The notes under the pieces: model-generated
The model's database searches: none
What the model saw: the letters and a program-made list of their open reading frames with translations, nothing else
Told to the model about the DNA's origin: nothing
NCBI RefSeq assembly: GCF_028368995.1
Contig: NZ_JAQNDL010000003.1
Location: 2,272,001-2,336,000 of the forward strand
Reading direction: 5' to 3'
Source: Nannocystis bainbridge
GTDB lineage: Bacteria; Myxococcota_A; Polyangia; Nannocystales; Nannocystaceae
Length of the DNA stretch: 64,000 nucleotides
Shown here: in pieces, positions 1,798 through 62,822 of the stretch
How positions within the stretch are numbered: position 1 is the first letter of the stretch
Layout of the letters: each line of letters starts with the position of its first letter
Translations under genes and position numbers: made by a program

Positions 1798-4764
1798 ATG
1801 TCAGCAACGACCGGCCCGCGCGACGGCCTCCTGCTGCTCGCGGCGTTCGCCTCGGGCGCGGCGGCCCTCGCCTACGAGATGCTGTGGACGCGCATGTTGG
1901 CGCTGTCGCTCGGCAGCGAGACCGTCGGCGTGCTCGCGGCGCTGGCCGGCTACTTCGCCGGGCTCGCGCTCGGGGCCGGGCTGCTGCACGACCGGACCCA
2001 CCGCGCCGCCGACCCGGTGCGCCTGTTCGTCCTGCTCGAGCTGGTCGCCGCCGGCTTCGCCGTGGCCTCGCCGCACCTCCTGCAGTGGCTCGCGCGCGTG
2101 CTGCCGGGCTGGCTCGGGCCCGTCGCTGCCGCCGGTGGGGCCGCGGCGCTGGCCGCCTCCACGGCGGTCGCCGCCGCCGTGCTCGCCCTCGGCGCCGCCC
2201 CGCTCGGCGCCTCGCTGGCGGCCCTGGTCGAGGCCCGCCGCCGCACCTGTCCCTCGGACCAGGACGGCCGCGGCCTCGGCCGGATCTACGGCGCCAACAC
2301 CCTCGGCGCCGCCCTCGCCGCCCTCGTCAGCGTCCACCTGGTGTTCCCCGCCCTCGGCTACGGCCTCGGCGCCGCCCTCGCCGCCCTCGCCGGCGCCGGC
2401 GCTGCCCTCGCCGCCCGGGCCTGGGGCGCCCGCGCTTCAGGACATGTCCCGCCGAGCATGTCCCCCGCGACAGTTTTGAAAGGACATGTCCCCGGAGACA
2501 TGTCCTCCGCGCCAGCCTCGCCGGCCGCCGAGATTGCGCCCGCCTCTCGGGACGCTGGCGCCGACGTCAATCCTCGAGTCACCGACGCGGGCGCCGACGT
2601 CGGTTCTCGCGTCACCATCGACGTCCCACCTGCCGCTCGAGACACCTCCGCGTCTCGCTTCACCTCGCCCTCCTCTCGGCACACCACCCCCGCCCCGCCT
2701 TCCGTCATCGACGCCTCGCGCGACCCCGACCCCGACCTGCTGCGCGAGCCGTGGCTGCTCGGCCTCGTGTCCTTCGGGACAGGTCTGACCGGCATCGGCC
2801 TCCAGGTCGTCGGCATCCGGGTGCTCGGCCAGCACCTCGAGAACACCATCTACACCTTCGCCCACATCCTCGCCGCCTACCTGCTGGCGACCGGCCTCGG
2901 CGCGCTCGTCTACCAGCGCTTCGCCGCGCGGGCGGTCGCCGGCCGGCCCGGCGGCGTCATCGCGGCGCTGCTGTGGCTGCTCGGCATCCTCGTCGTCCCG
3001 GCGGCCATGGTCCTCGCGCAGGGGCCCGCGCTGTTGCAGGCGCTCGCGCCCGAGGCGGCCGGGCTCGCGCGCGCCGGCCTGGCCGAGCTCGCGGTCGCGG
3101 CCCTGGTGTTCGCGCCGACCGCCGTGGTCCTCGGCGCCCTGCTCAGCCACGTCATCGGCCTGGTCGCGGCCACCGGTCGCGGCGTCGGCCGGACCTACGC
3201 CTACAACGCGCTCGGCTGCGCCGCCGCCCCGTTCGTGTTCGGCCTCGTCGCCATCCCGCGGCTCGGCTACGCCGACGCCTTTTACGCCGTGCTCTACGCC
3301 TACCTGGCGCTGTTCGCCGTGTTCGGGTGGTTCCGCCGGTTCTCGCCGATCATGCTCATCGGCGGCGTCCTCGCCGGCGTGGCCTTCACCGCCGCCGGCC
3401 CGCGCTCGCTGGCCCTCGTCAGCGACAGCGACGGGTGGGTCCGCCGCGAAGAGCGCCAGACCCTGCACGGCCTCGTCGCCGTCAGCGAGCGCCCCGGCCC
3501 CGGCGGCGCCCCGCTGCGCCGGCTGCAGATAGGCAAGCGCTTCCGCATGGGCGGCGCCGCCGGCTTCGGCGAGCAGCGCATGGGCCAGCTCTGTTCGCTC
3601 CTGTCCCATGCGTCAGGTCCCGAAGGACCGATCGCAAAGGCCCTGTACCTCGGCCTGGGTACCGGCTCGACCATGGGCGGCGCGCTGGCGGTCCCGCACG
3701 CCGCGGCCGAGGGCGTCGAGCTGGTGCCGGAGATCGTCGAGCTGCTGCCGCACTTCGCCGACATCAACCACGACCTGGCAAAGCGCCCCGAAGCCACCCT
3801 GCTCGCCGCCGACGCCCGCCGCTACCTCGCCGCCGCGCCCGACCGCTACGACCTGATCGTCGCCGACCTGTTCCACCCCGGCCAGGCCGGCGCCAGCAGC
3901 CTGTTCGCGCGCGAGCACTTCGCCGCCGCCGCCAGCCACCTGCGCCCCGGCGGCCTGATGTGCCAGTGGCTGCCGCTCTACCAGCTCGACGAGGCCGACG
4001 TGCGCACGATCGTCCGCACCTTCCTCGACGTGTTCCCCGAGTCCTACGGCTTCCTGGGCATCTACAACGCCCAGAACCCCGCGCTCGCGCTCGTCGGCCG
4101 CGCCCCCGACCCGGCCGCGGCCCAGCTCCACCTCGACGTCGCGCGCCTGCAGGCCGACACCGCCAAGCTGCAGAACATCGTCGACCCGCGCGACCTGCTG
4201 GCCTCCTACGTGATGGGCCCCGGCGAGCTGACCGCGTGGGCCGGCGACGGCCCGCGCAACACCGACCTCGCGCCCGAGATCGCGTTCCAGGCCGCGCGCG
4301 TGGCCTACCGCGACGACCGCAGCCTCGGCGCCCACAACCTCGGGGCGGTGCTCCAGCGCGCCGCCCCGGCCCCGGCCGCCCTCCTGACAGGCAGCGGCGC
4401 CGAGGCCCTCGCCGCCGCCAGCGCGCCGTTCACCGCCGCCGCCCGCCACTACCTGACCGGCGAGATCGCCCGCGGCGACCTCGCTGACCTTTCGGGGATG
4501 TCCTGGGAGACAGCCGAGAACTTCGTCCGCGCCTATGAGGCCGACCCCGAGTTCGCGCCCGCCCGCGGCGCCCTCTACACCATCGCGCGCAAGAACTCGG
4601 CCCTGGCCGCGAAGCTCCTCCCGCGCATGCTGGCCCGCACCCCCGACGAACCCCGCGTCTACGAGGCCTTTTTAAATCACCTGCGCCTGACCGGCGATCA
4701 GACCGCCTACCAGCAATTGCGCGACGAGGCCGCCGCCAAGTTCCCGGACGCCACCCTGCCGTGA
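1798..4764 (+). CDS. Fused membrane domain / spermidine synthase-like SAM-binding protein
   Basis: SGAAALAYEMLWTR and YGANTLGA membrane repeats; LYLGLGTG, VELVPEI, DARRYL, YDLIVADLFHP, QWLPLYQ. Has a low-complexity insert of about 100 aa at roughly 2431-2730. Confidence 0.85.
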   Translation: MSATTGPRDGLLLLAAFASGAAALAYEMLWTRMLALSLGSETVGVLAALAGYFAGLALGAGLLHDRTHRAADPVRLFVLLELVAAGFAVASPHLLQWLARVLPGWLGPVAAAGGAAALAASTAVAAAVLALGAAPLGASLAALVEARRRTCPSDQDGRGLGRIYGANTLGAALAALVSVHLVFPALGYGLGAALAALAGAGAALAARAWGARASGHVPPSMSPATVLKGHVPGDMSSAPASPAAEIAPASRDAGADVNPRVTDAGADVGSRVTIDVPPAARDTSASRFTSPSSRHTTPAPPSVIDASRDPDPDLLREPWLLGLVSFGTGLTGIGLQVVGIRVLGQHLENTIYTFAHILAAYLLATGLGALVYQRFAARAVAGRPGGVIAALLWLLGILVVPAAMVLAQGPALLQALAPEAAGLARAGLAELAVAALVFAPTAVVLGALLSHVIGLVAATGRGVGRTYAYNALGCAAAPFVFGLVAIPRLGYADAFYAVLYAYLALFAVFGWFRRFSPIMLIGGVLAGVAFTAAGPRSLALVSDSDGWVRREERQTLHGLVAVSERPGPGGAPLRRLQIGKRFRMGGAAGFGEQRMGQLCSLLSHASGPEGPIAKALYLGLGTGSTMGGALAVPHAAAEGVELVPEIVELLPHFADINHDLAKRPEATLLAADARRYLAAAPDRYDLIVADLFHPGQAGASSLFAREHFAAAASHLRPGGLMCQWLPLYQLDEADVRTIVRTFLDVFPESYGFLGIYNAQNPALALVGRAPDPAAAQLHLDVARLQADTAKLQNIVDPRDLLASYVMGPGELTAWAGDGPRNTDLAPEIAFQAARVAYRDDRSLGAHNLGAVLQRAAPAPAALLTGSGAEALAAASAPFTAAARHYLTGEIARGDLADLSGMSWETAENFVRAYEADPEFAPARGALYTIARKNSALAAKLLPRMLARTPDEPRVYEAFLNHLRLTGDQTAYQQLRDEAAAKFPDATLP
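2431..2514. repeat. Six head-to-tail 14-bp TGTC-N6-GACA-like units, in frame within the CDS
   Basis: Units cgcgcttcaggaca, tgtcccgccgagca, tgtcccccgcgaca, gttttgaaaggaca, tgtccccggagaca, tgtcctccgcgcca. Confidence 0.85.
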
Positions 4765-4771
4765 ATGCCGC

Positions 4772-4978
4772 GAGCTGTCCCGAGGGACAGCTTGTCACCG
4801 ACCTGCGCGCGGCTGTCTCGAGGGACAGCCACTCGCCGCAAGCGAGCTGTCCACGGGACATGTTGTCGCCACCCTGCCCGGAGCTGTCCCGAGGGACATA
4901 TTATTGCCGACCTGTACGCGGCTGTCTCGAGGGACAGCCCTTCGCCGACCTTCGCGCGGCTGTCCCTCGGGACAGCCG
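4772..4978. repeat. Intergenic array of six GCTGTC-N6-GACA palindromes, period about 38 bp
   Basis: TGTC starts at 4776, 4814, 4848 (N5 variant), 4885, 4923, 4961; the linkers are related to each other (cgacctgcgcgcg, cgacctgtacgcg, cgaccttcgcgcg). Confidence 0.9.
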
Positions 4979-8802: not shown

Positions 8803-9696
8803 ATGCCTCGCCTTCGACCGCAGATCGGGCTCGCGATCGCGCTTGTGTGCCTGCCGCAGCCGGCTCACGCCGACAGCTTCCGGCCGCCCGAGGACAAGCT
8901 TCCGGTCGAGGTCACCATCGCCGTCGAAAACCTCGACGCGCACCCGGAGTACATCTTCGTGCTGTGGCCCGACGCCTGTCTGCGCAACGACGGCAACATG
9001 GGCACCTACACCGTGCTCAATTGGCAGGAGGACGACGGCCGGCCCGACCTCTTCGAGGAGGGCTGCTCCCGCCAGCGACTGTTCGCCTACCCGCGCGACA
9101 CCTACTCCGAGGACGAGGGCGTCCTGTCCGAGAACGCCCGCCAGCAGCTCGGCGACGACCCGCCGAGCGACCCGCGGGTGCTCGTGCAGACGATCACCGC
9201 CGAGGAGATATGGTGGGTGCCCGACGAGGTCGATGTCTCTGGCATCGAGGACGTGTACCGCGTCGGCATCGACAGCACCGGCCTCTCGCTGACCCCGACC
9301 CGCGTCCGCTTCAGGTTCTCCGGCGGAGCTATCTTCGAGCGCCTCTTTTACAAGGGCCGACGCCCACGGCTGCCGCGTGTCTCCGACACCCCGCCCAAGC
9401 CGCCGCCGGCGCCCGCCGCTCCCGCCGCCGAGCCCGCCCCCGCAGCCGCCGACACGCCGGCCCCCGACGCGAGCGCTACCCCCGACACGAAGGCCGAACC
9501 ACCGACCCCCGACGCGAAGGCCGAACCACCGGCCCCCGTGATCACGCCTGCGCCTCCCGCCTCGGAGCCGGAGCCGGCTACCTCCGAGGAGATCTCGCAA
9601 CGACCCTGGCTGCCTCCGCCGCTGATGTACGGCGGCGCCTGCCTGCTGGTCGCGATCGCGGCCGGGCTCGCGCTGCGGCGCCGCCCCGGCGCGTGA
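8803..9696 (+). CDS. Hypothetical exported protein with Pro/Ala linker and C-terminal membrane anchor
   Basis: Signal-like N-terminus ending AHA-D, Pro-rich stalk, hydrophobic tail followed by RRR. Confidence 0.7.
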   Translation: MPRLRPQIGLAIALVCLPQPAHADSFRPPEDKLPVEVTIAVENLDAHPEYIFVLWPDACLRNDGNMGTYTVLNWQEDDGRPDLFEEGCSRQRLFAYPRDTYSEDEGVLSENARQQLGDDPPSDPRVLVQTITAEEIWWVPDEVDVSGIEDVYRVGIDSTGLSLTPTRVRFRFSGGAIFERLFYKGRRPRLPRVSDTPPKPPPAPAAPAAEPAPAAADTPAPDASATPDTKAEPPTPDAKAEPPAPVITPAPPASEPEPATSEEISQRPWLPPPLMYGGACLLVAIAAGLALRRRPGA

Positions 9697-9729
9697 CCTT
9701 CGAGACATGTCCTTCGGGACAGCTTATTT

Positions 9730-11838: not shown

Positions 11839-13479
<1,641 letters not shown>

Positions 13480-23368: not shown

Positions 23369-23571
23369 TCCTCATTTCTTGACCTCGATGGTTCGCGGCT
23401 TCATTTCTGCTGGCACGACCCGACCCGAGTTTTTTAAATCTGTCCTCAAGGACATCTCATGACAATCGCGCCGACTGAACGTCAGCGACCCTGACCGGGG
23501 CGAGGGGTTATTCGCCGGGCCAGGGTCTCGACAGGACTTTCAAGGCGGACGCTCTCGATCTGCCACGGCGA

Positions 23572-35342: not shown

Positions 35343-35554
35343 ACGTTGTCGCCAGCGCGGGCGCCTCGTCTCGCACCGCGCGCGCCTGCCGAACCGACGA
35401 AGATCTCGGCATCGCGGCAGTGACTCGCGACGCAGCGACGATCTGGCCGTCGCCGCTCGGCCGCCCTGCGCGAGCCGATTAAACGCGAACGGCGGCGATC
35501 GCTCGCCGCCGCGGTCGCTCGCTGTCACGAGCGACCTGTCCCTTCGGACAGGCC

Positions 35555-38940: not shown

Positions 38941-39903
38941 ATGAGCGCCTTGTCGATGTCTCGCCGCCCGCTTCTCGCCCTCGCGTTCGCTCTCGGCGCC
39001 CTCGGCGGTTGCTTCCTCAGCGCCAACCCGCCGCCGTCGTTCCGCTACAACTGCAAGATCGACGGCGACTGCCAGGTGCTCACCTGCCGCGGCGACCTGA
39101 TCGCCATCCCCGACGCCGACGCCGCCGGGCTGCAGCTGGCCGAGGACTGCGACGAGGTGCTCGAGGCCGAAAAGAACAAGTTCTACGAGGCCCGCCAGGC
39201 CTGCCTCGACGGCCTGTGCGAGTACCCGTGCGAGCTCAGCACCGACGTCTGCCCGGCCGACAAGGGCCATAGACTCTGCTTCAACGGCACCTGCGCGACC
39301 GCCTGCGGCTACGACGACGAGCGCTTCCCCAACCCCGACGCCACCTGCTCGCAGTCCCAGAAGTGCGTCCTGTTCGGCGACGACATCGAGCTGGCGCTGA
39401 TCGAAGATCTGTTCGGCAGCAGCAGCGGCAGCGGCAGCAGCAACGGCGGCTTCGGCGGCGGCGGTAGCGGCAGCTCCAGCCTCGAGGACCTCATCGGCAC
39501 CGGCCTGTGCGGCATCCGCTGCGACGCCGAGGGCGCCCGCGCCTGTCCTCCGGGACAGTACTGCAGCGGCGCGATGTGCCTGCCCGACTGCGCCCACGAG
39601 AACGCCACCCCGTGCGCCGACTCGGCCCAGTGCTACGCGTTCGGCGGGTTCTCGACCTGCATCGTCAAGTGCGACCCAGCCGGCGAGAACACCTGCGAGA
39701 AGGGCGAGATCTGCGTCCAGGGCCTCGGCCTGTGCCTTTCGACCTGCCTCGGCGAGGACGCGACCACCTGCCGCGAAGGCCTCACCTGCAGCGAGGAACT
39801 GGCGATCTGCGTGCCCGAGGATCTGCCGGCCGACACCATCGGCACCGACACCGACGTCAGCGACACGGAAGCTCCCACCAGCGAAACCGAGACCAGCGGA
39901 TGA
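38941..39903 (+). CDS. Cys-rich lipoprotein
   Basis: LGGC lipobox; more than 30 Cys; Ser/Gly linker; Thr/Asp tail. Confidence 0.8.
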
Positions 39904-40627: not shown

Positions 40628-42730
40628 ATGTCCTCCGCGCCAGCTGGTCCCGAGGACATGGCGAAGACGCCAGGTCCGAAAGGTCCTGTCGCTACGGACA
40701 TGCCCTCCGGGACAGGCGGGATGACGCCGCACGGACGTGACGACCTGTCCACCGGGACAGACGGCATGAGCTCGCGCGCCCGCGAGGCCGCCTCGCCCGA
40801 CCTGTCCTTCGGGACACCCGGCTCCCTGTCCCCGCGGGTCGCCGTGCTCGGCGTCCTCGCCCTGATCGCCCTCGTTCACGTGCCGCTGCTCGGCTTTCAG
40901 TTCGTCTACGACGACGGCTGGACCCTGGTCGCCAACGGGTTCTTGCGCGCGCCGGCCGACCTCGCGCTGCTGTTCTCGCCCGAGGCGATCGCCCGCCACG
41001 TCCCTGACGCCTTCCGGCCCGGCCTCGTCGTCTTCGACCTCCTCGGCTACCAGCTCATCGGCCTGTCCTCCGGCCTGCACCACGCCCTCTCGATCGCCCT
41101 CCACCTGGGCGTCTGCGCCGTCCTGGTCCGCTGGCTGCGCGTGCTCGGGGCCCCCTTCGACCTGGCCCTCGGGACAGCCGCGCTGTTCGGCCTGCTGGCG
41201 ATCCACGCCGAGGCCGTCGCCGTCGTCTCGTACCGCGAGGACCTCCTGGCCGCCCTGCTCGGCCTCGCCGCCGCCCTCGCCGCCTCGCGCCGCCGCCTCG
41301 CCCTCGCCGCCTTCCTGTCTCTCGGGGCATGTTCGATGAAGCTCAGCGCCGGCGCGATCCCGGCGCTGTGGCTGCTCGCCGAGGGCCTCTCGCCGTGGCG
41401 CCCGCGCCCGCCGGTGACCCACCTGCTGCGCGGCGCCCTCGCCCTCGCCCTCGGCGTCGCCGCCGTGATCGCCTACACCTTCGCCCTCTACGGCGCCCTC
41501 GACCCGTACGGCGCAGGCAACCTGCGCGTCTTCAGCCACCGCGTCGGCCTCGGCCCGGTGCTCGCCGCCTCGCTGCCGATCCACCTCGGCTACTTGCAGC
41601 AGATCCTGGTCCCGCTCGGCCTCTCGCCCGAATACACCGACCGCGCCGCCGGCCTCCGCGAGCCCGCGGTGCTGCTGGCCGGCGCCGCCCTGCTCGCGCT
41701 CGCCGGCTACGGCCTCGCCTGCGCCCGCCGTCGCCCGCTGGTGGCCCTGGCGATCCTCGGCGCCTTCGCCCTCGCCCTGCCGACCAGCAACCTGTTCCCG
41801 ATGCCCAACATGCGGGCCGACCGCTTCATGTACCTGCCGAGCGTGCCGGTCTGCCTCGGCCTGGCCGCGCTCTTGCTGACCGCCGGTCGCTGGCTGTCTC
41901 GACATGTCCCCGAGGACATGCGACTGTTCGCCCGCGTCGCCCCGCTGGCCGCCGTGGTGGTCGTCCAGGGCTCGGTGCGCGTGGCCACGGCCGCGGTCTA
42001 CCGCGACAACTCGCACCTGTGGGGCGTGGCCCACGTGCGCGCCCCCGACTCGGCCCGCGCCCTCGCGGTGCTCGGCGAGCTGGTGCTGCGCAACGTCCCT
42101 GCCGACGCCCCGCGCGAGGACAAGGCCCTGGCGTTCGCCCGCGCCGAGGCCCACTGCCGCAACGCCGAGCGCCACGACCCCCGCTACGAGCTGCCGCAGC
42201 TGTGCTTCGCCCGCCTCGCCGCCGCCCGCGAGGACTGGCCCGAGGCCTACCGCCGCTACCAGGCGGCCCTCGCCGTCAGCCCCGACCGCAACGCGGGGAT
42301 CTTCGCCGGCCTCGCCGAGGTGAGCCTCGACCTGCCCGCGACTTCCGAGACGACACGCACGGACCTGGCCCGCCGTCACCTCGCCGAGGGCCTGGCGAGC
42401 TACCCGTACAGCCCGGAGCTGCACGCGACCGCGGGGCGGATCTTCCATCGCCTCGCCGACCCGGAGCAGGCAACGCTCCATTATCAACGGTCCCTCGCGC
42501 TGGCCCCCGAGCGACCCGAAGCCCTGCTCGCGAACATCGAGCTGCTCCTCGACCTCGGACGTCCGACCGCCGCGACCGAGCTCCTGCTCCACGAAAAAAC
42601 CGCCTGGCTCGCCGCCGATCCCGACGATCGGACCGCGCTTGTCGCGCGGCACCGCGACGCCTTGCGGCTGTTCGAACCTTCATCGATACTCTCAGCCGAC
42701 CCCGTCGGAGTCCTCGCCCATGAGCCGTAA
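40628..42730 (+). CDS. TMTC-like GT-C glycosyltransferase with C-terminal TPRs (true start may be about 40766)
   Basis: FVYDD, FRP, HAEAVAVVSYREDL, ADRFMYLPS, then TPR-like helices. Confidence 0.8.
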   Translation: MSSAPAGPEDMAKTPGPKGPVATDMPSGTGGMTPHGRDDLSTGTDGMSSRAREAASPDLSFGTPGSLSPRVAVLGVLALIALVHVPLLGFQFVYDDGWTLVANGFLRAPADLALLFSPEAIARHVPDAFRPGLVVFDLLGYQLIGLSSGLHHALSIALHLGVCAVLVRWLRVLGAPFDLALGTAALFGLLAIHAEAVAVVSYREDLLAALLGLAAALAASRRRLALAAFLSLGACSMKLSAGAIPALWLLAEGLSPWRPRPPVTHLLRGALALALGVAAVIAYTFALYGALDPYGAGNLRVFSHRVGLGPVLAASLPIHLGYLQQILVPLGLSPEYTDRAAGLREPAVLLAGAALLALAGYGLACARRRPLVALAILGAFALALPTSNLFPMPNMRADRFMYLPSVPVCLGLAALLLTAGRWLSRHVPEDMRLFARVAPLAAVVVVQGSVRVATAAVYRDNSHLWGVAHVRAPDSARALAVLGELVLRNVPADAPREDKALAFARAEAHCRNAERHDPRYELPQLCFARLAAAREDWPEAYRRYQAALAVSPDRNAGIFAGLAEVSLDLPATSETTRTDLARRHLAEGLASYPYSPELHATAGRIFHRLADPEQATLHYQRSLALAPERPEALLANIELLLDLGRPTAATELLLHEKTAWLAADPDDRTALVARHRDALRLFEPSSILSADPVGVLAHEP

Positions 42731-43134: not shown

Positions 43135-44506
<1,372 letters not shown>

Positions 44507-44701
44507 CGCCGCAACACAACTGCTCGCTCGCGTCGCCCGAGCGGGGCGAACCGATCGCGGTCGGCAGCATCGACCTGTCTCTTCGGACAGCTCGACATTT
44601 CCAAGTCAGCCCCGACGCCGCGGCGGCCAGGCCCACGGGAGCCCCTTGCTCCGCGTCCGCACGCCCGTCGGGCCTAGCCGTCGACGAGGCCCCGGGTCCC
44701 T

Positions 44702-48039: not shown

Positions 48040-48890
48040 CGCGGCGCAGCAAGGGCCCCCTCGACCCCGAGGCCCTGCTGCGACTGGGCACCAGCGAGCA
48101 CTACGAAGACCCCGAGCTCTACGACTTCGAGTACCGGGACCACCGCCACGACGTCGCCTGGTACCGCGGCCTCGCCCGCGACCGCGGCCCGCGCCAGCGG
48201 GTCGTCGAGCTCGGCGCCGGCACCGGACGGATCAGCCTCCCGCTGTGTCACGACGGCCACGGCGTCGTCGCCGTCGACCGCATGCCCAGCATGCTCGACC
48301 ACCTGCGGCGCAAGGCCGCCGACCTCCCGAGCGACGTCGCCGCCCGCCTCGAACCTGTCCTCGGGGACATCACCGCGTTGCCGCTGCCCGACGCCAGCGC
48401 CGACCTCGTGTTCGCCCCCTTCAACGTGCTCATGCACCTCTATTCGTGGGAGGACCTGCTGCGCTGCTTCCGCGAGGCCGCGCGCGTGCTCGTGCCCGGC
48501 GGGCGGTTCGCCCTCGACGTCCTCCTGCCCGACCTCGAGTGGCTGACCTGGGACCCCGAGGAGCGCCACAGCGTCACCCACTTCACCCACCCGCGCACCG
48601 GCGCGCCGATGGTCTACTCGACCAATCACCGCTACGACCCGCACACCCAGGTGTGCCACGTCCGGATCTTCTACGACGACGCCCCCAAGCGCCCGCGCGC
48701 CTTCAAGCCGCCGCCCGAGCCGGTCCAGGTCGTCCACCTCGCCCACCGCCAGATCTTCCCCGAAGAGCTGCGCCACCTCGTCGCCGCCGCCGGCCTCGAG
48801 CTCGACAGCCTCGGCGGCAACTTCCGCGGCACCCGCCTCGTCCCCGGCGTCGACTCGCAGTGCGTCCTGTGTACCAAGAGACATGTCTGA
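48036..48890 (+). CDS. Class I SAM-dependent methyltransferase
   Basis: VELGAGTGR, AVD, GDITALP, LVPGGRF; GTG overlaps the pcnB stop. Confidence 0.9.
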   Translation: MTRRSKGPLDPEALLRLGTSEHYEDPELYDFEYRDHRHDVAWYRGLARDRGPRQRVVELGAGTGRISLPLCHDGHGVVAVDRMPSMLDHLRRKAADLPSDVAARLEPVLGDITALPLPDASADLVFAPFNVLMHLYSWEDLLRCFREAARVLVPGGRFALDVLLPDLEWLTWDPEERHSVTHFTHPRTGAPMVYSTNHRYDPHTQVCHVRIFYDDAPKRPRAFKPPPEPVQVVHLAHRQIFPEELRHLVAAAGLELDSLGGNFRGTRLVPGVDSQCVLCTKRHV

Positions 48891-49077
48891 AACGACATGC
48901 TCTTCGGGCCATCTCACTCGCTCGCGGCGCCCGTGAGCTCCAGGCTCGAGCTCCGTCCTCGCTCGCGCTCTCGGGCTCTCGGCTGCTGGCGCGCCGCCCG
49001 CCGAGCCTCGACTCGCTTTACGCGCCGGCCGATCGCTCTGGACCCTCCGCGCCTGCGCCCTCCGCGTCTGTGAGCCC

Positions 49078-50998: not shown

Positions 50999-51176
50999 GG
51001 TCTCAAGAGACATGTCCTTCGAGACATGTCTCTCGAACCATTTTCGAAACTGTCGCACTGTCCCGACACATGCGCGGCGCGCAGGCAGCCGTCGTCACCG
51101 CGGTCCCTGCTCTCTCCGCGCCTCGTTTAAAACCTGCCTCAAGGGGCATGTCCATCCAGACATGCCCCTTCGAACA
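50999..51176. repeat. Two phased 14-bp TG..CA arrays between convergent genes
   Basis: Three units at 50999-51040 and three at 51135-51176, each including one exact TGTC-N6-GACA. Confidence 0.85.
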
Positions 51177-51181
51177 TGCTT

Positions 51182-53683
51182 CTAGAGCGGCTTCGGCCCC
51201 GGGGCCCCGTCGAGCGCGTCGAGCAGCGAATCCCACTCCGCGTCCTCTGCTCCTGCCGCCGCCGGCGGTTCGACGCCCGGTCCTGGCGCTGCCGGTGCGG
51301 CCGCGGACACCACGGGCGGCGCCACGCTCGGCGCCTGCGCCACCGGCGGGGACAGCTTTCCTCCCGGCGGCATGAGCGGCGGCGCCACCAAGGGAGCGGC
51401 GGGGAAAGCCGGCGGCACCAGCGACCCGCCTGAAGCCGCCAGCGGCGCGCTGGCAGCCGAAGGCCGAGATCCCGGCAACGGCGCCCCGGCAGCGGGCCTC
51501 GGCGGCAGCAGCGGCGCCCCCGGAACCACCGGCACGGGCGGGGCCATCGACGCCCCCGCGAGCGGCGGCGCAGCGGGCCTCGACGCCGGCAACGTCGGCC
51601 CGCTCGCAGCCGGCGGGCTCTTCACCGGGACGGGCGGCAGCCCCAGCGGAGGCCGCCCGGCCGGGCTCCCGCCCACCGGCAGCCCCGCGACCGCCGGCGG
51701 CTTCGCCAGCGGCACCGAGAACGCCGGCGGCTTCACCCCTGCCGCGGCGACCGGCCCGGACGTCTCGGGCCGGCCGGCGATCGGCCCCGACTGCGCCGGC
51801 GCCCCGAGATGCCCGAACAACGCCCCCGCCGAAGGCGCTCCCGCCTTCGAGTCACTCGCGGCGCCCCTGTCCCGAGGGACATCCGCCCCGGCGACACCAG
51901 CCGTCAATCCGGCCCTGTCCCGAGGGACATCCGCCCCGGACAAACTACCCGTCAATCCGGCCCTGTCCCCAAGGACATCCGCCCCAGCGACACCAGCCGT
52001 CAATCCGGCCCTGTCCCCAAGGACATCCGGCCCAGCGACACCAGCCGCCGAACCGCCCCTGTCCCCAAGGACATCCGCCCCAGCGACACCAGCCGCCGAA
52101 CCGCCCCTGTCCCCAAGGACATCTGCCCCAGCGACACTCGCGTCCGGCCGCGCCTCGCCGACCCTGGAACCTGCCCCTTCGACCCTGTCCCCGAGGACAG
52201 CCACACTCGAACCAGCCGGAGCCGCCGCACGCCCCACGACCGTTTCGGCGCCGCCCTGCGGCTCACGAAGCGCCTCGCCGACCCCGCCCGCCCGCGCCAC
52301 CGGACCCCCGAGGCTCGCCGCCGGCGCCTCCACCCGCGCCGTCACACTCGTCTTCCCCGACCTGTCCGAAGAGACAGACCCGAGCTCCGGCTTGCCCGCC
52401 TGCCGCGTCGCGCTGCGCGGCGGCGTGCTCGTCACTCGCGCCGTCCCTCGCCGCTCGGCCTTCGCCGCGCGCCTGGCCGCCCGCCGCTCCTCCCGGCGGA
52501 CGTTTCGCTTCCCGCGCGGCTGCTCCGCCTCGCGCCCGTCCGGCCGCTCCGCCTCGTCCTCCGCCGCGCCGACCGGCAGCGCCAGCATCACCCCGCCCGC
52601 GACCGCCGGCTCGCCCCGCGACGGCGCCGCGACAGCCGCCTCACCGGGCTCGATCGGCCGCGGCGCGCTCGCGACCTTCGCCGCCGCCTGTCCATTCGGA
52701 CCTGCCCCCGAAGACATGTCCTTCGCGCCATCCGAGCGCCTCGCGGCCTGTCCCTTCAGACCTGCCCCGGAGGACATGTCCTTCACGACATCCTTGCGCT
52801 CGCCCGCCCGCGCCTCGAGCTTGCGGGCCCGCTTCTCGCTCGCCTTGACCGCCGGCCGCAGCATCCGCCGCGCCCGCTCGACCAGCGCCTCCGCCAGCCT
52901 GTCCGGCCCGGCCTCGAGCCCCGCCTCGGCCCCGCGCAGGGCCGACAGCGCCGGCTCCGAGGCCCCCGCGCGTTGCTCGAGCAGCGCCCGCGTCGCCAGC
53001 ACCCGCGGCGTCGCCCCCAGCGCCGCCTGGGCCGTGTCGAGCAGCGCCCGCACCTCGTCCGCGCGCGGCTTGCCGGCCAGCAGCTGCGCCGCGGCCAGGT
53101 GCAGCTGATCCCACGGCCCGAGCGCCTGGCGCTTCGCCTGCGCCTGCAGCAGGTCGCGCGCCTGCTCCGGCACGTCGGCGATCAGCAGCGCGTGCGCCTG
53201 CGCCGACACGATCCCCGCCGGCGGGTCGGCCATCGTCCCGGCCAGCCGCGCCGCCTCCGTCAGCGCTTTGGCCGACGCCCGCCCCTCGCCGCGCACCAGG
53301 TGCAGCCGGCCCTCCTGCATCGCCGTCCACGCGAACGGAGCGAACCACCGCACCCGCCGGCGCTCGCGCAGCGCGCCGAGCAGCCCTGGCGCCGTGCTCG
53401 GCGTCGCCGCCATCACCGCCCGCTCGAGCGGCCCGAGCAGCCCTTGCACGAACACCGGGAACAGCGCGAACCACAGCGCCGCCCCCGCCAGCAGCCCCCA
53501 GAACACCGGCCCGCGCGGCGCGAAGATCAGCCCCCCCGCGATGATCGCCATCGGCACGTAGATCCGCGCCGCCGCCGACGCGAGCGGCCGCTTCGAGCGG
53601 AGCCACGACGTGGCGGGCAGAGGAGCCCGCGCGGGCTCGGGCGGGGCGGCAGAGGTCGGGGCAAGATCGCTCACGGAGGCCAA
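51182..53683 (-). CDS. Hypothetical membrane protein with helical-repeat region and long low-complexity tail
   Basis: Two TM segments, Ala-rich helices, 16-aa repeats (GADVLGDRAG...), Pro-rich end. Confidence 0.65.
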   Translation of the reverse strand: MASVSDLAPTSAAPPEPARAPLPATSWLRSKRPLASAAARIYVPMAIIAGGLIFAPRGPVFWGLLAGAALWFALFPVFVQGLLGPLERAVMAATPSTAPGLLGALRERRRVRWFAPFAWTAMQEGRLHLVRGEGRASAKALTEAARLAGTMADPPAGIVSAQAHALLIADVPEQARDLLQAQAKRQALGPWDQLHLAAAQLLAGKPRADEVRALLDTAQAALGATPRVLATRALLEQRAGASEPALSALRGAEAGLEAGPDRLAEALVERARRMLRPAVKASEKRARKLEARAGERKDVVKDMSSGAGLKGQAARRSDGAKDMSSGAGPNGQAAAKVASAPRPIEPGEAAVAAPSRGEPAVAGGVMLALPVGAAEDEAERPDGREAEQPRGKRNVRREERRAARRAAKAERRGTARVTSTPPRSATRQAGKPELGSVSSDRSGKTSVTARVEAPAASLGGPVARAGGVGEALREPQGGAETVVGRAAAPAGSSVAVLGDRVEGAGSRVGEARPDASVAGADVLGDRGGSAAGVAGADVLGDRGGSAAGVAGPDVLGDRAGLTAGVAGADVLGDRAGLTGSLSGADVPRDRAGLTAGVAGADVPRDRGAASDSKAGAPSAGALFGHLGAPAQSGPIAGRPETSGPVAAAGVKPPAFSVPLAKPPAVAGLPVGGSPAGRPPLGLPPVPVKSPPAASGPTLPASRPAAPPLAGASMAPPVPVVPGAPLLPPRPAAGAPLPGSRPSAASAPLAASGGSLVPPAFPAAPLVAPPLMPPGGKLSPPVAQAPSVAPPVVSAAAPAAPGPGVEPPAAAGAEDAEWDSLLDALDGAPGPKPL
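51864..52137. repeat. Six 48-bp tandem repeats, each carrying an exact TGTC-N6-GACA
   Basis: Motif starts at 51868, 51916, 51964, 52012, 52060, 52108. Confidence 0.95.
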
Positions 53684-56488: not shown

Positions 56489-56585
56489 TGCGCCTTGGAA
56501 CATGTTCAATCGAACATGTCCAAAACGCCATGCCATCATTCCCAGCGCCGCGGGACATGTCCATTCAGACATGTCCCGCGCGCCA
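56489..56585. repeat. Phased 14-bp TG..CA array between convergent genes
   Basis: tgcgccttggaaca, tgttcaatcgaaca, tgtccaaaacgcca, tgccatcattccca, one 13-bp unit, tgtccattcagaca, tgtcccgcgcgcca. Confidence 0.85.
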
Positions 56586-58363: not shown

Positions 58364-58369
58364 TTTTAC

Positions 58370-58439
58370 CGATCTCAGGGACATGCTCTAAAAACCATGC
58401 TCGTTAGCACATGTCCATGTGAACATGTCCTCGAGGACA
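58370..58439. repeat. Phased 14-bp array upstream of the JmjC gene
   Basis: cgatctcagggaca, tgctctaaaaacca, tgctcgttagcaca, tgtccatgtgaaca, tgtcctcgaggaca. Confidence 0.85.
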
Positions 58440-60543: not shown

Positions 60544-60591
60544 TCGCGGTCCCACGTCCGTTCCGGGGCTGCCGCGTTACACTCGACCATC

Positions 60592-62730
60592 GTGTCTGCC
60601 GCGCCCCGGACCCTCGCCGTCGCAGCCGTCCTCCTCGTCGGCGACCTCGTCGCCGGACCGGCCCGCGCCGACAACCTGCACATCGACGTCCAGGCGAACC
60701 CCGAGCGCAACTTCATCCCGGTGCAGGAGCTCTCCTACGAGGCGATCGTCGCCGGGGTCGACGGCTACAAGGTCGACCTGCGCCTGCGCATCGCGCTCCA
60801 CAACGCCAGCAAGCGCCGCCAGGACGCGGTCCTCAGCCTCGCCTTGCCCCGCGACGCCGAGCTCGTCGGCCTCGCCGTGGCGCGCGACGGCACCTGGAGC
60901 CCCGGTCGTCCTGCCGGCGTCGCCGTCGAGCCGGCCCACCGCGCCTCCGGCACCGTCTTCGCCCGCGCCCTCGCGCCTGCCGTCGCCGGCGACCTGCCGG
61001 CCGCCGAGGTCGTCGTCTTCAACCTCGACCCCGAGACCAGCATTCAGCTCGAGCTGCAGCTCAAGGCCCCGCCGCGGCTGCGGGCCGACCGCTGGGAGCT
61101 CGAGCTGCCGGGCCGCGGCGACGACCGCTGGGGCCTCGCGCCCGAGCGCCGCGTCATCGTCCAGGGCAGCCGCCCTGGCGAGACCGCCCGCTTCTGGCTC
61201 GACGACCGCGCCAGCGACGGCGCCGCCGTGCTCGTCTCGCACCCCGAGGAGCGGTCCGTCGTCTCCTGGCCTCATAAACATGTCTCGAAGGACAGGAGCA
61301 TCCTCGACGGCCACCTCGAGCTCGTGCCCGACCCGACCCCTCCGGGCGGCAAGGCCAGGAGCGGCCGCTTCCGCGCCTACCTGCGCCTCGGCGCCGCCCC
61401 GCCGCCGCGGCCCGACCACGTCGTCGTCGTGCTCGACCGCTCGCGCAGCACCGCCCCCGACCTCCACCGCGACGCCTTCGCCGCGATCGCCGGCCTGTTC
61501 GACGAGCTGCCGCCGAGCCTCACCTTCGACGCCATCAGCTTCGCCCGCACCGCCCGGCCCCTGCTCGAAGGCGGCGAGTTCCCTGGCGTGCGCGACCGCG
61601 GCGCCCGCGACCGCGTCGCCGCGGCCCTCGACGCCGGCGCCCGCGAACAGGGCACCGACCTCGCCGCCGCCCTCGCCCTCGCCGGCCGCCGGATCGCCGC
61701 TCGCGGGGCCCGCCGCCCGCTCGTCGTCGTCATCACCGACGGCATGCTGCCCGCCAGCATCGGCGCGCGCCAGATCGGGGATGTCTTTTCGGACAGCCTC
61801 GCCAACTCCGCCCGCCCCGAGCTGCTCTTCATCGTCGACGAGCCGATGCTGCTGCGCGGCGGCATCACCCCGCAGCACCCGATCGCCAGCGTCGCCACCG
61901 CGCTCGGGGCCCGCATCAGCCTCGAGTCGCTGGCCCAGCACGCCCGCCGCAGCGGCGGCGAACCGCCCGAGGGCCTCACCGAAGCCCTGCTGGCCGCCCC
62001 CGCCGTCCTCTCCGACCTCGAGCTGTCGCTGCCGCGCCGCGCCAGCCTCGACGAGCCGGCCCCTGGCGCCCTCGTCGCCGGCAACGTGCTCGTCGTCCGC
62101 GGCCGCTACACCGGCGCCCCGCCGAGCGTCGGCGTGCGCGGCAAGCTGGCCGGCGCGCGCACCAGCCGGACCTTGCGCGCCGTCACCACGCCGCCGCCGC
62201 CCGCCGCCCTGGTCGCCTCGTTCGGCGTCGCCGACCTCGAGCGCGCCGCCGCCGACGGCTTCACGCGCCCGCCGTGGTTCGGCCTCAATCAACAGCGCGT
62301 GGCCCGGCTCGGCATCACCTGGGCCGGCCGCGGCAACGGCGAAGAGCGCGGCTTCCTCGACGAGAAGATCTTCCGCAACTACCTCGGGATCCGCGTGTTC
62401 CCCCGCGCCCGCGCCTGTTTCAATAAGGGGCTCATGCGCGACCAGCAGCTCGGCGGCAAGGTCGTGTTCGAGATCGAGGTCGGCAAGGGCGAGGTGATGT
62501 TCGCCAGGGTCGACACCACCGGCCTCGCGCGCCGCGAGCCCGGCTTCGAGGCCTGCCTGCTCGAGGCCGCCTGGGCGCTCGAGATCCCCGCCGGCCGCCT
62601 CGACGACCAGATCTACCGCCTCCGCTACCCCGTGGTCTTCAACCCGCCGTCGGGCGGCCGCCCGGCCATGGAAGACGACCCGCTCGGCCCGGGCACCGTC
62701 GAGCTCCTGCTCGGCCTGCCGAACCGCTGA
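60592..62730 (+). CDS. Exported VIT-like / vWA-domain protein with TonB-C/AgmX-like C-terminal domain
   Basis: Signal peptide; MIDAS-like LDRSRS, GTDL, ITDG; RACF...GKVVFEIEV...CL...YPVVF. Confidence 0.7.
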   Translation: MSAAPRTLAVAAVLLVGDLVAGPARADNLHIDVQANPERNFIPVQELSYEAIVAGVDGYKVDLRLRIALHNASKRRQDAVLSLALPRDAELVGLAVARDGTWSPGRPAGVAVEPAHRASGTVFARALAPAVAGDLPAAEVVVFNLDPETSIQLELQLKAPPRLRADRWELELPGRGDDRWGLAPERRVIVQGSRPGETARFWLDDRASDGAAVLVSHPEERSVVSWPHKHVSKDRSILDGHLELVPDPTPPGGKARSGRFRAYLRLGAAPPPRPDHVVVVLDRSRSTAPDLHRDAFAAIAGLFDELPPSLTFDAISFARTARPLLEGGEFPGVRDRGARDRVAAALDAGAREQGTDLAAALALAGRRIAARGARRPLVVVITDGMLPASIGARQIGDVFSDSLANSARPELLFIVDEPMLLRGGITPQHPIASVATALGARISLESLAQHARRSGGEPPEGLTEALLAAPAVLSDLELSLPRRASLDEPAPGALVAGNVLVVRGRYTGAPPSVGVRGKLAGARTSRTLRAVTTPPPPAALVASFGVADLERAAADGFTRPPWFGLNQQRVARLGITWAGRGNGEERGFLDEKIFRNYLGIRVFPRARACFNKGLMRDQQLGGKVVFEIEVGKGEVMFARVDTTGLARREPGFEACLLEAAWALEIPAGRLDDQIYRLRYPVVFNPPSGGRPAMEDDPLGPGTVELLLGLPNR

Positions 62731-62738
62731 TCACGGGC

Positions 62739-62822
62739 TGTCCCGGAGAGCATGCCCTCCGGGACATGCTCTTCACGACATGACCGAACAGACATGCCTC
62801 GAAAGGCATGTCCATAAGCGCA
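62739..62822. repeat. Six-unit phased 14-bp TG-N10-CA array filling a convergent intergenic gap
   Basis: tgtcccggagagca, tgccctccgggaca, tgctcttcacgaca, tgaccgaacagaca, tgcctcgaaaggca, tgtccataagcgca. Confidence 0.92.

What the first reader, a model, noticed from the sequence alone, without database searches (positions are those of the whole stretch)
2431..62822. Pervasive 14-bp palindrome TGTC-N6-GACA, roughly 100-fold over-represented
Seen: about 41 exact copies by hand count, for example at 2459, 2487, 2768, 4499, 9708, 12312, 23441, 24738, 25356, 30921, 31698, 33175, 35537, 39544, 40746, 40803, 41905, 44576, 48356, 48884, 51013, 52363, 56558, 58426, 61281 and 61782, plus many one-mismatch copies. 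A rough base-composition estimate at about 72% GC gives about 0.4 expected per 64 kb; about 11 of the copies come from two tandem repeats. The spacer is almost always 6 nt and often extends the dyad (CC..GG). Sites fall in ORFs, over stop codons and between convergent genes rather than at promoters. I saw none inside the IS110 element or the rpsB-tsf-pyrH coding regions. Known analogues in behaviour, not sequence: HIP1, DNA uptake sequences, matS, Noc and SlmA sites, RacA ram sites (also 14-bp TG..CA). Inference: an undescribed chromosome-architecture or self-marking motif bound by an abundant dimeric protein.
Basis: partly seen in the sequence, partly recalled or inferred. Interest (0 to 1): 0.87.

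Follow-up and report, generated by a model that had tools for sequence, protein, structure and literature searches.

The report
Hyper-abundant 14-bp palindrome marking gene ends
This large GC-rich Nannocystis-type myxobacterial genome carries thousands of copies of one short DNA palindrome, TGTC-six bases-GACA, mostly just after genes end and kept by selection, so it probably docks an unidentified paired DNA-binding protein.

Summary
The window holds 42 exact TGTC-N6-GACA against 0.64 expected. The whole 11-Mb genome holds 3,663 against about 117 expected, and only at spacing 6. The excess survives a codon-shuffled null inside ORFs: 1,028 against 78.

The unit is a 14-16-bp dyad, (C/A)TGTCC-N4-GGACA(G/T). 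It stands alone or in head-to-tail arrays in exact 14-bp register. Density peaks 20-60 nt after stop codons. Sites per kb run 2: 1: 0.45 for convergent, tandem and divergent gaps.

I found no compensatory covariation, no transcript-strand asymmetry, no T-tract, no RAYT transposase and no Rfam match. Across four congeners the core is more conserved than the spacer, even at third codon positions (140/148 against 891/1095). The same gene ends keep a site.

The motif is enriched only in this genus and, more weakly, in two sister genera.

Best reading: a selected double-stranded DNA site for an unidentified symmetric protein, concentrated at transcription-unit ends. The protein and the function are inferred, not shown. 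I found no description of the motif in the papers searched.

The parts
2431..2514 (.). Degenerate array with exact units at 2459-2472 and 2487-2500, a one-mismatch unit at 2501-2514 and GGACATGTCC junctions.
   Evidence: It lies inside the stop-to-stop ORF 1723-4764(+) but contains an AT-rich stretch, so whether it is coding is uncertain.
2768..2781 (.). Single unit TGTCCTTCGGGACA inside ORF 1723-4764(+).
   Evidence: It is not kept in G005 or G007.
4499..4512 (.). Single unit inside ORF 1723-4764(+), 252 nt before its stop.
   Evidence: It is identical in G005 and G007.
4769..4976 (.). A 38-bp tandem repeat (5.6 copies) that fills the convergent gap between ORF 1723-4764(+) and the terpene-synthase ORF 4992-6074(-). 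Exact units at 4776, 4814, 4885, 4923 and 4961.
   Evidence: The DNA does not align with other species, but the orthologous gene ends carry exact sites in G005 and G010.
9694..9721 (.). Two abutting units, a one-mismatch unit at 9694 and an exact unit at 9708, starting right at the stop of ORF 8740-9696(+); the exact unit begins 11 nt after that stop.
   Evidence: The orthologous gene end has an exact site in G005 and G007.
12312..12325 (.). Single unit inside ORF 11740-13479(+).
   Evidence: It is identical in the three species aligned there.
23441..23454 (.). Single unit in the convergent gap, 72 nt after the stop of the P450 ORF 21959-23368(+) and 117 nt after the stop of ORF 23572-24342(-).
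   Evidence: The orthologous ends carry one-mismatch units.
24738..24751 (.). Single unit inside ORF 24696-26273(-), 42 nt before its stop.
   Evidence: It is kept in 3 of the 4 species aligned.
25356..25369 (.). Single unit inside ORF 24696-26273(-).
   Evidence: It is identical in 4 of 4 species.
30921..30934 (.). Single unit inside ORF 30198-31229(+).
   Evidence: The core is kept in 3 of 4 species while the spacer changes.
31698..31711 (.). Single unit inside ORF 31245-32264(+).
   Evidence: The core is kept in 4 of 4 species while the spacer changes.
33175..33188 (.). Single unit overlapping the last codons of the GST-domain ORF 33169-34275(-).
   Evidence: The core is kept in 3 species while the spacer is wholly different.
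35523..35550 (.). Two abutting units, a one-mismatch unit at 35523 and an exact unit at 35537. The exact unit ends 5 nt after the stop of frr, the last gene of rpsB-tsf-pyrH-frr on the minus strand.
   Evidence: The orthologues carry TGCC...GACA one-mismatch units with varied spacers.
39544..39557 (.). Single unit inside ORF 39468-40616(+).
   Evidence: It is identical in 4 of 4 species.
40629..40816 (.). Loose cluster downstream of ORF 39468-40616(+). Exact units at 40687, 40746 and 40803; one-mismatch units at 40629 and 40701.
   Evidence: The orthologous gene end has exact sites in G005 and G007 and one-mismatch sites in G001 and G010.
41891..41918 (.). Two abutting units, a one-mismatch unit at 41891 and an exact unit at 41905.
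   Evidence: The core is kept in 4 of 4 species. The gene context was not resolved.
43564..43577 (.). Unit TGTCGGGAAGGACA inside the IS110 transposase ORF. It lacks the C/G dyad extension and is probably a chance match.
   Evidence: The IS has three identical copies in the genome.
44576..44589 (.). Single unit about 48 nt outside the right end of the IS110 element, 112 nt after the stop of ORF 44702-45676(-).
48356..48369 (.). Single unit inside ORF 48012-49505(-).
   Evidence: It is identical in 4 of 4 species.
48870..48897 (.). Two abutting units, a one-mismatch unit at 48870 and an exact unit at 48884.
   Evidence: The core is kept in 3 of 4 species.
50999..51026 (.). Two abutting units, a one-mismatch unit at 50999 and an exact unit at 51013, about 100 nt after the stop of the GNAT ORF 50445-50912(+).
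   Evidence: In each species the orthologous convergent gap has its own arrays, and these do not align with one another.
51149..51162 (.). Unit 19 nt after the stop of ORF 51182-53794(-), followed by degenerate CATG-register units.
   Evidence: The core is kept in 3 species with different spacers, and the gene end carries an exact site in 4 of 4 species.
51865..52199 (.). A 48-bp tandem repeat (5.7 copies, 51865-52137) plus one further unit. Exact units at 51868, 51916, 51964, 52012, 52060, 52108 and 52186, all inside the open frame 51182-53794(-).
   Evidence: Codon periodicity is weak here, the ORF has no Pfam hit, and the stretch does not align with other species.
52363..52376 (.). Single unit inside ORF 51182-53794(-).
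52689..52790 (.). Two runs of three abutting units (52689/52703/52717 and 52749/52763/52777). Only the unit at 52777 is exact. They lie inside ORF 51182-53794(-).
56558..56585 (.). Two abutting units (56558 exact, 56572 with one mismatch) in the convergent gap, 77 nt and 60 nt after the two stops.
   Evidence: No site was found at the orthologous ends.
58412..58439 (.). Two abutting units, a one-mismatch unit at 58412 and an exact unit at 58426, upstream of ORF 57365-58384(-).
   Evidence: They are degenerate in the other species.
61281..61294 (.). Single unit inside ORF 60544-62730(+).
   Evidence: The core is kept in 4 of 4 species.
61782..61795 (.). Single unit inside ORF 60544-62730(+).
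   Evidence: It is identical in 4 of 4 species.

Best explanation
TGTC-N6-GACA, more fully (C/A)TGTCC-N4-GGACA(G/T), is a double-stranded DNA recognition site for a symmetric, probably homodimeric, sequence-specific DNA-binding protein. That protein would be peculiar to a small clade of Nannocystaceae: this genus, plus two sister genera at lower site density.

Shown here: single sites occur everywhere, including inside genes, and are held by purifying selection. The site is most concentrated 10-100 nt after the stop codon of the last gene of a transcription unit. In this genus it has multiplied there into head-to-tail arrays in exact 14-bp register.

Inferred: adjacent dimers abut in those arrays and bind cooperatively. 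A palindromic site works equally for both directions, and its peak is between convergent genes. My best guess at function is therefore a protein-occupied boundary at transcription-unit ends: a bidirectional roadblock or insulator, or a docking point for supercoil management. The binding protein, the cooperativity and the boundary function are all inferences. The selection, the symmetry and the location are shown.
For: 1. Specificity. Only n=6 is enriched: 3,663 against about 117 expected genome-wide, and 1,028 against 78 +/- 8.6 under codon shuffling. TGTCC-N4-GGACA occurs 1,987 times against 3 for the reversed control. It is the only hyper-abundant 4-Nn-4 palindrome in 100-kb samples of three genomes of the genus.

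2. It is read as sequence, not as structure. Mutual information between mirror positions is 0.005-0.04, and Watson-Crick pairs occur at 0.95-1.22 of expectation. T..G (102) against C..A (112) shows no transcript-strand bias among 862 sites in co-directional gaps. Spacers vary freely.

3. The unit stands alone. 1,171 of 3,663 sites have no neighbouring half-site, whereas 88% of GACATGTC junctions have an N6 partner. Isolated sites still exclude G/T at position 0 and A/C at position 15.

4. Selection. 53 of 75 aligned comparisons with four congeners keep the exact motif. Core identity is 0.935 against 0.809 for the spacer, and 0 of 2,000 random controls reach that difference. Third codon positions are identical at 140/148 in the core against 891/1095 around it.

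5. Location. Convergent, tandem and divergent gaps hold 2.0, 0.95 and 0.44 sites per kb. In long convergent gaps density is 1.9-3.2 per kb within 60 nt of a stop and falls to about 0.5 per kb beyond 200 nt. 1,120 of 6,355 crude genes have an exact site within about 110 nt after the stop. rpsB-tsf-pyrH-frr has no site inside it and one site 5 nt after frr.

6. The same gene ends keep a site across species, 11/31 against 3/138, even where the DNA no longer aligns.

7. Arrays are in exact register. Site spacings of 14, 28, 42 and 56 bp occur 144, 88, 61 and 36 times, and CATG recurs at a 14-bp period 3,736 times.

8. An independent precedent for the geometry. Three GACATGTC boxes at the same 14-bp period lie beside PadR-family repressor genes in 5 actinobacterial loci. 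The array contains ATGT-N8-ACAT, the canonical PadR operator (PMC3506622, passages read).
Against: No protein was identified. PadR (PF03551) has no match in this genome. LexA is single-copy across the family, and the region upstream of lexA in this genome lacks the motif. HsdS does not track the motif.

About 700-1,000 sites lie inside real genes. A strong roadblock there would be harmful, so either single sites block weakly or the function is not transcriptional.

Arrays also create perfect palindromes of 8 bp or more: 48.6% of motif-bearing 3' regions have one, against 15.2% of the others. A hairpin or cruciform role is therefore not excluded on physical grounds.

The gene calls are my own crude GC3-based calls covering 75% of the genome, so the location figures are approximate. 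The conservation tests rest on one 64-kb window and four related, non-independent genomes. No RNA data were available.
Confidence: 0.5

Rival explanations
1. The motif is a hyper-abundant palindrome of the HIP1 or uptake-sequence type. It would be maintained by a molecular drive (biased repair, a methylation-linked process or preferential DNA uptake) or by a diffuse nucleoid role. On this view it accumulates at 3' ends only because those are the least constrained DNA.
For: Sites are enriched 13-fold inside ORFs against a codon-shuffled null. They are conserved in and between ORFs, as reported for HIP1 (PMC5861425, abstract read). They are depleted in atypical, probably foreign, regions. The motif is clade-specific. 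Sites are depleted within 60 nt of start codons in divergent gaps, which fits avoidance of promoters.
Against: Tolerance alone does not explain the sharp peak 20-60 nt after stops inside long convergent gaps. It also does not explain the strict 14-bp register of arrays or the persistence of a site at the same gene ends after the surrounding DNA has turned over. Uptake sequences, as I recall them, are ungapped and non-palindromic. The specificity subunit of Type I methyltransferases does not follow the motif across genera.
Confidence: 0.2
2. The motif acts as an RNA or single-stranded DNA hairpin, serving as a U-tract-less bidirectional terminator or a 3'-end stabiliser. Two adjacent GGACATGTCC junctions form a 10-bp stem with a tetraloop.
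For: Sites lie just after stop codons and between convergent genes. Arrays give perfect stems of 8 bp or more in 493 of 1,014 motif-bearing 3' regions. Spacers such as TTCG are common.
Against: No mirror pair shows compensatory covariation. There is no G-U against C-A asymmetry with respect to the transcript (102 against 112) and no orientation bias of loops. A T-tract follows only 49 of 1,014 such regions. In the sister genera a single unit with a 5-7-bp stem sits at gene ends, which is too weak for a terminator. Hundreds of conserved sites lie inside genes. The window has no Rfam match.
Confidence: 0.13
3. The motif is a REP/REPIN-like or MITE-like selfish element, spread by a transposase into extragenic DNA.
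For: It is an extragenic, 3'-biased, clustered, clade-specific palindrome whose intergenic copies turn over quickly. REPs are likewise abundant extragenic palindromes (PMC3116915, abstract read).
Against: No Y1/RAYT transposase is present; the positive control matched in 6 of 14 reference genomes. There is no shared sequence beyond 16 bp, and spacers are free, so there is no master copy. Hundreds of in-frame coding sites are conserved at synonymous positions, which insertion cannot produce. The IS110 copies do not target the motif.
Confidence: 0.07

Closest known systems
HIP1 (GCGATCGC) of cyanobacteria
   Same: It is a hyper-abundant, clade-specific palindrome found inside and between genes and conserved between genomes, so selection rather than neutral replenishment maintains it. 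Its function and partner are unknown (PMC5861425, abstract read).
   Different: HIP1 is an ungapped 8-mer, reported without gene-level function or placement. The present motif is a gapped 4-6-4 dyad with strict spacing, a strong peak after stop codons, and in-register tandem arrays.
REP / BIME / REPIN elements with RAYT transposases
   Same: They are abundant extragenic palindromes, often clustered and often at 3' ends or between convergent genes (PMC3116915, abstract read). That E. coli REPs bind IHF and gyrase is my recollection.
   Different: This genome has no RAYT. Only 8-10 bases are conserved and spacers are free. There is no pairing covariation. Many copies lie inside genes and are conserved.
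PadR-family operators (ATGT-N8-10-ACAT)
   Same: The geometry is identical: arrays contain ATGT-N8-ACAT. In 5 actinobacterial loci, three GACATGTC boxes at the same 14-bp period lie next to a PadR gene.
   Different: Those are single promoter operators with AT-rich spacers. Here there are thousands of sites at gene ends with GC-rich spacers, and no PadR gene was found in the genome.
DNA uptake sequences (Neisseria DUS, Pasteurellaceae USS)
   Same: They are clade-specific and number in the thousands. They occur in genes where tolerated, are enriched near terminators and are scarce in foreign DNA. All of this is recalled, not tested.
   Different: Uptake sequences are ungapped and not dyad-symmetric, and they do not form in-register arrays. 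No uptake bias has been tested here.
Sequence-specific nucleoid sites (matS/MatP, NBS/Noc, SBS/SlmA, parS/ParB, ram/RacA) and the 3'-end-binding protein GapR
   Same: Short palindromes bound by dimers organise the chromosome. GapR gathers at the 3' ends of transcription units. Both points are recalled.
   Different: Those sites number tens per genome and map to chromosome macrodomains. GapR reads DNA shape, not a motif. The present motif has thousands of copies tied to individual gene ends.

Membership tests
REP/REPIN-RAYT system | A REP-associated tyrosine (Y1) transposase gene in the genome | tested here: not met
   PF01797 gave 0 matches in G000 (90.5% complete). The control matched in 6 of 14 reference genomes.
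REP/REPIN-RAYT system | Copies confined to extragenic space and sharing a 20-40-bp conserved sequence | tested here: not met
   1,390 of 3,663 sites fall in crude ORFs, and 708 of 1,037 in-ORF sites have strong coding signal on both sides. Only the core and the adjacent positions are conserved.
Intrinsic (hairpin) terminator or RNA stem-loop | Pairing maintained by compensatory changes, with G-U tolerated on the transcribed strand | tested here: not met
   Mutual information is 0.005-0.04, and T..G 102 against C..A 112 shows no strand bias.
Intrinsic (hairpin) terminator or RNA stem-loop | A U-tract after the stem | tested here: not met
   Only 49 of 1,014 motif-bearing 3' regions have a stem of 8 bp or more followed by at least 4 T in 8 nt. 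The oriented logo shows no T run.
HIP1-like hyper-abundant palindrome | Large over-representation against codon-aware expectation, and conservation of sites between genomes inside and outside ORFs | tested here: met
   1,028 against 78 +/- 8.6. The core-minus-spacer identity difference is 0.126, reached by 0 of 2,000 controls. Third codon positions are identical at 140/148 against 891/1095.
HIP1-like hyper-abundant palindrome | No gene-level placement | tested here: not met
   There is a strong peak 0-100 nt after stops, and convergent gaps exceed tandem gaps, which exceed divergent gaps.
PadR operator | An inverted ATGT/ACAT repeat with an 8-10-nt spacer | tested here: met
   A at position 0 and T at position 15 occur in 58-59% of sites, and in 73-74% of sites in array context. 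The consensus is taken from PMC3506622.
PadR operator | A PadR-family protein encoded by the genome | tested here: not met
   PF03551 gave 0 matches (the control matched in 14 of 14 genomes) and tblastn gave E > 1.
DNA uptake sequence | Biased uptake of motif-bearing DNA by a competence receptor | not testable with these tools
   This needs transformation or uptake assays.
Binding site of a dimeric DNA-binding protein | Dyad symmetry, fixed spacing, independently conserved half-sites and a free spacer | tested here: met
Binding site of a dimeric DNA-binding protein | A protein shown to bind it | not testable with these tools
   No candidate emerged from the PadR, LexA or HsdS checks.

The most novel reading that the evidence does not exclude
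A sequence-encoded, protein-built boundary system for transcription units. A clade-specific dimeric DNA-binding protein would polymerise on in-register 14-bp arrays placed just after stop codons. There it would act as a bidirectional roadblock terminator or topological insulator between convergent genes in a 71% GC genome where classical U-tract terminators are scarce. Single intragenic sites would serve a weaker nucleoid role.
Probability: 0.2. Interest if true: 0.9.

Novelty: new variant of a known kind. Interest (0 to 1): 0.72.

Why it matters
Hyper-abundant short palindromes such as HIP1, REP and uptake sequences are among the least understood features of bacterial genomes. This one is unusually tractable, for three reasons:
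- Its strict dyad and spacing predict a dimeric reader.
- Its placement, and its conservation at the same gene ends, give a concrete function to test.

Nannocystis is also a producer of natural products, so rules for transcription-unit ends would help in engineering it.

Tried and rejected
- RAYT/Y1 transposase: none in the genome.
The isolated sites read CTGT-N8-ACAG, which I recall as the E. coli SOS-box geometry. LexA is mostly single-copy across the 41 family genomes (0-3 matches each), with no extra copy tracking the motif. The region upstream of lexA in G000 has no such site.
- Type I specificity subunit (PF01420): it is scattered across genera irrespective of the motif and missing from one motif-positive genome.
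- A gene flanked on both sides by many units, by analogy with RAYT: no outlier.
- Small genes next to divergent gaps with two or more sites: only 10 such gaps, and the two small ORFs I translated did not look like DNA-binding proteins by eye and were not scanned against any library.
- IS110 targeting of the motif: the three identical copies have unrelated flanks.
- An analogous palindrome in three other genera (100 kb each): none. The CATG-N5-CATG hits were codon spacing and one local repeat.
- Rfam on the window: 0 matches.
- Viral contigs: only 5 of 2.9 million hold even two junctions in register, and I did not follow them up.
- RNA evidence: no RNA holder was listed for window 44001-54000. 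The six listed runs hold 0.06-0.07 of the words.
- Literature: no paper on this motif in Nannocystis or other myxobacteria turned up in searches. Hits for the 8-mer were p53 sites and primers. HpoR of M. smegmatis binds GACA-N2-TGTCC, a different arrangement (passages read). Supplementary files were not consulted.

Full report
**Observation.** The window holds 42 exact TGTC-N6-GACA, against a mean of 0.64 in 100 dinucleotide-preserving shuffles (largest 3). With one mismatch allowed there are 87, against 17.55 +/- 4.1. The window is C2:2272001-2336000 of an 11.05-Mb, 71.5% GC assembly in five contigs. Genome-wide there are 3,663 exact sites, against about 117 expected from the frequencies of the two 4-mers. 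TGTC-Nn-GACA at every other n from 0 to 30 gives 29-189, except n=20 (984), which is two adjacent units. The reversed-pattern control gives 25. The stricter TGTCC-N4-GGACA gives 1,987 against 3. In the interiors of 5,561 crude ORFs, a null that permutes synonymous codons within each gene gives 78.1 +/- 8.6 at n=6, against 1,028 observed. The other spacings lie near their nulls, within about two-fold.

**Anatomy.** Position 5 is C (75%) and position 10 is G (72%). The flanks read C-(A/C) on the left and (T/G)-G on the right. Sites with no neighbouring half-site (1,171 of 3,663) still exclude G/T at position 0 and A/C at position 15, and they prefer C...G there. The full site is therefore a 16-bp dyad, (C/A)TGTCC-N4-GGACA(G/T).

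The other 2,492 sites have a neighbouring half-site (at most one mismatch) abutting on at least one side. This creates the junction GACATGTC, with 2,237 copies, which is the most over-represented 8-mer among those with more than 300 copies. 88% of these junctions have an N6 partner with at most one mismatch on at least one side, so the dyad, not the junction, is the unit. Arrays keep exact register. Successive sites lie 14, 28, 42 and 56 bp apart 144, 88, 61 and 36 times, and CATG recurs at 14, 28 and 42 bp 3,736, 2,073 and 1,586 times, against 144 expected. The 3,663 sites form 2,800 clusters: 2,212 singles, 409 pairs, 118 triples, and larger ones up to 9. With one mismatch allowed there are 11,671 units genome-wide; I computed no genome-wide null for that figure.

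**Sequence or structure.** Two adjacent junctions can form a 10-bp stem with a tetraloop, and 493 of 1,014 motif-bearing 3' regions hold a perfect stem of 8 bp or more, against 514 of 3,386 regions without the motif. Pairing does not appear to be the selected feature, however. Mutual information between mirror positions inside the unit is 0.007-0.02 and outside it 0.005-0.04, no higher than for non-mirror control pairs. Watson-Crick pairs occur at 0.95-1.22 of expectation. Among 862 sites in gaps between co-directional genes, oriented by the transcript, T..G (which could pair as G-U) occurs 102 times and C..A 112 times. Spacers show no consistent orientation, and no T-run follows. Only the central dinucleotide of the spacer shows dependence (MI 0.25-0.33). 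That fits either a shape preference or the genome's own word biases. The site thus behaves as double-stranded sequence read symmetrically.

**Location.** My gene calls are crude: long ORFs with high third-position GC, 6,355 genes covering 75% of the genome. 38% of sites fall in these ORFs. Counts in 20-nt bins after stop codons run 270, 375, 258, 197 and 145, and then decline. 1,120 of 6,355 genes have an exact site within about 110 nt of the stop. Convergent, tandem and divergent gaps carry a site in 42%, 21% and 13% of cases (2.0, 0.95 and 0.44 per kb). In tandem gaps the sites lean towards the upstream gene's stop. In convergent gaps of 400-1,500 bp, density is 1.9-3.2 per kb within 60 nt of a stop and about 0.5 per kb beyond 200 nt. 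In divergent gaps it is 0.07-0.33 per kb within 60 nt of the ORF starts.

In the window, 13 of the 42 sites lie within 150 nt after a stop and 24 lie in GC3-supported ORFs, nine of them in one repetitive ORF. The operon rpsB-tsf-pyrH-frr has no site inside it and one site 5 nt after frr. Of 1,037 in-ORF sites genome-wide, 708 have third-position GC of at least 0.85 on both sides, so most are truly coding. Density is over-dispersed. Deserts such as C1:1.10-1.30 Mb (8 sites in 200 kb) have lower GC and atypical skew, and carry 0.06-0.17 sites per gene against 0.5-0.7 elsewhere.

**Conservation.** I took the syntenic 100 kb from four genomes of the same genus. 24 of the 42 window sites align in at least one of them, and 53 of 75 aligned comparisons keep the exact motif (random 14-mers: 0.46 +/- 0.09). 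Core identity is 0.935, spacer 0.809 and flanks 0.806. The core-minus-spacer difference of 0.126 is reached by 0 of 2,000 random controls. Several sites keep TGTC/GACA while the spacer is entirely replaced (33175, 31698, 51149). For 16 in-ORF sites, third codon positions are identical at 140/148 within the core against 891/1095 in the spacer and flanks (Fisher p = 1.3e-5). The genomes are kin, so this p-value overstates the case.

Intergenic arrays often do not align at all, yet each species has its own arrays beside the same stop codons. Gene ends that carry an exact site here carry one in the orthologue in 11 of 31 comparisons, and a one-mismatch site in a further 10. Gene ends without a site here carry one in 3 of 138 comparisons. 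All three belong to one gene end, whose G000 site lay just outside my scoring window.

**Phylogenetic range.** Named records with three junctions in register are mainly Nannocystis species and one Nannocystaceae MAG, so I take the genus to be Nannocystis. All 10 other genomes of the genus that I searched have paired junctions (1-147 copies; G000 has 223). One of 14 other genera in the family has 2, and 16 genomes of 13 other families have none.

The single dyad reaches further:
- This genus: four genomes, G000 among them, hold 548-3,663 sites against 25-37 for the control.
- Genus g2: 623-705 against 21-109.
- Genus g4: 283-586 against 9-50.
- The other 14 genera of the family: 16-186 against 9-73.

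The 5-4-5 form gives 149/2 and 295/2 in one genome each of g2 and g4. It gives 0-13 in 70 genomes of 26 other families and in six more from three other genera of this family. In g2 and g4, 8 of 16 loci inspected have the site within 60 nt after a stop, often as a single unit between convergent genes. Single sites at gene ends therefore look ancestral to a three-genus clade, and the arrays look like an expansion within this genus. Three other genera (100 kb each) have no comparable palindrome of their own.

**What reads it.** I could not find out. The array contains ATGT-N8-ACAT, the canonical PadR operator (PMC3506622, passages read). Outside Nannocystaceae, three GACATGTC boxes at the same 14-bp period occur in promoter-like DNA, and in 5 actinobacterial loci they lie beside a PadR gene. 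This shows that a winged-helix dimer can use exactly this register. But this genome has no PadR match. LexA is single-copy and has a different box, and HsdS does not track the motif. There is no RAYT, and the IS110 copies do not target the motif.

**Interpretation.** The shown facts are symmetry, strict spacing, independent half-sites, selection at synonymous positions, the peak after stops, persistence at the same gene ends, and in-register arrays. They fit a selected double-stranded DNA site for a symmetric protein concentrated at transcription-unit ends. I put this at about 0.5. The specific function (roadblock, insulator or supercoil management) is my inference, and the many intragenic sites weaken it.

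The rivals are a HIP1-like or uptake-like drive with no role at gene ends (0.2), an RNA or single-stranded DNA hairpin (0.13), and a selfish REP-like element (0.07). I leave the remainder to explanations I have not thought of.

**Novelty.** I found no paper describing this motif. I did not see supplementary files, and subscription journals are not in the library. The closest known things are HIP1 (same evolutionary behaviour, different anatomy and placement) and REP/BIME (same placement, different anatomy, no transposase here). I therefore file it as a new variant of the hyper-abundant genomic palindromes.

Noticed in passing
window 43115-44528: An IS110-family element (DEDD_Tnp_IS110 plus Transposase_20, ORF 43535-44506). 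Two further copies in the genome, on C3 and C1, are 100% identical over the part compared. The flanks of the three copies are unrelated.
   Followed up: yes
window 35555-38616, minus strand: The operon rpsB (37636-38616), tsf (36979-37632), pyrH (36160-36936) and frr (35555-36268). It has no motif inside it and one unit 5 nt after the frr stop.
   Followed up: yes
window 51182-53794, minus strand: A long open frame with no Pfam hit. It has clear codon periodicity only in 52350-53700, a 48-bp (16-codon) tandem repeat carrying the motif, and a C-terminal end conserved in other species. In G003 that C-terminal segment appears tandemly repeated.
   Followed up: partly
loci L009, L013, L014, L020, L041 (Actinomycetota); L006, L008, L024, L028, L030, L032, L035, L036, L039 (Rhodobacteraceae): Three GACATGTC boxes at a 14-bp period with AT-rich spacers, in promoter-like DNA. 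In the five actinobacterial loci a PadR-family gene lies alongside; in L041 it is read divergently, next to a carotenoid-oxygenase-like ORF. In the Rhodobacteraceae loci, several per genome, no PadR was seen within the 8 kb. This may be an undescribed regulon.
   Followed up: partly
G000 contigs C1, C2, C5 and the whole window: The plus strand is persistently C-rich. Mean GC skew is -0.06 to -0.08 per contig and -0.04 to -0.21 across most of the window. Genome-wide C is 0.370 and G is 0.345, which is unusually lopsided for a whole assembly.
   Followed up: no
G000 C1:1,100,000-1,300,000; C2:750,000-800,000; C2:1,850,000-1,900,000: Motif deserts with lower GC (0.68-0.70), near-zero skew and poor GC3 gene signal. 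They are probably horizontally acquired regions.
   Followed up: partly
window 15456-15942: A 96-bp (also 189-bp) tandem repeat encoding a Cys/Asp/Gly-rich unit within ORFs at 15393-16208.
   Followed up: no
G000 C2:1484190-1484484: A divergent gap filled by about seven copies of a roughly 48-bp repeat, each with an ACATGTCC-AAAG-GACAT-type unit. This is the densest promoter-side cluster I found.
   Followed up: no
window 4992-6074 (minus strand) and 21959-23368 (plus strand): A terpene synthase (Terpene_syn_C_2) and a cytochrome P450. Each is followed by motif units after its stop.
   Followed up: no
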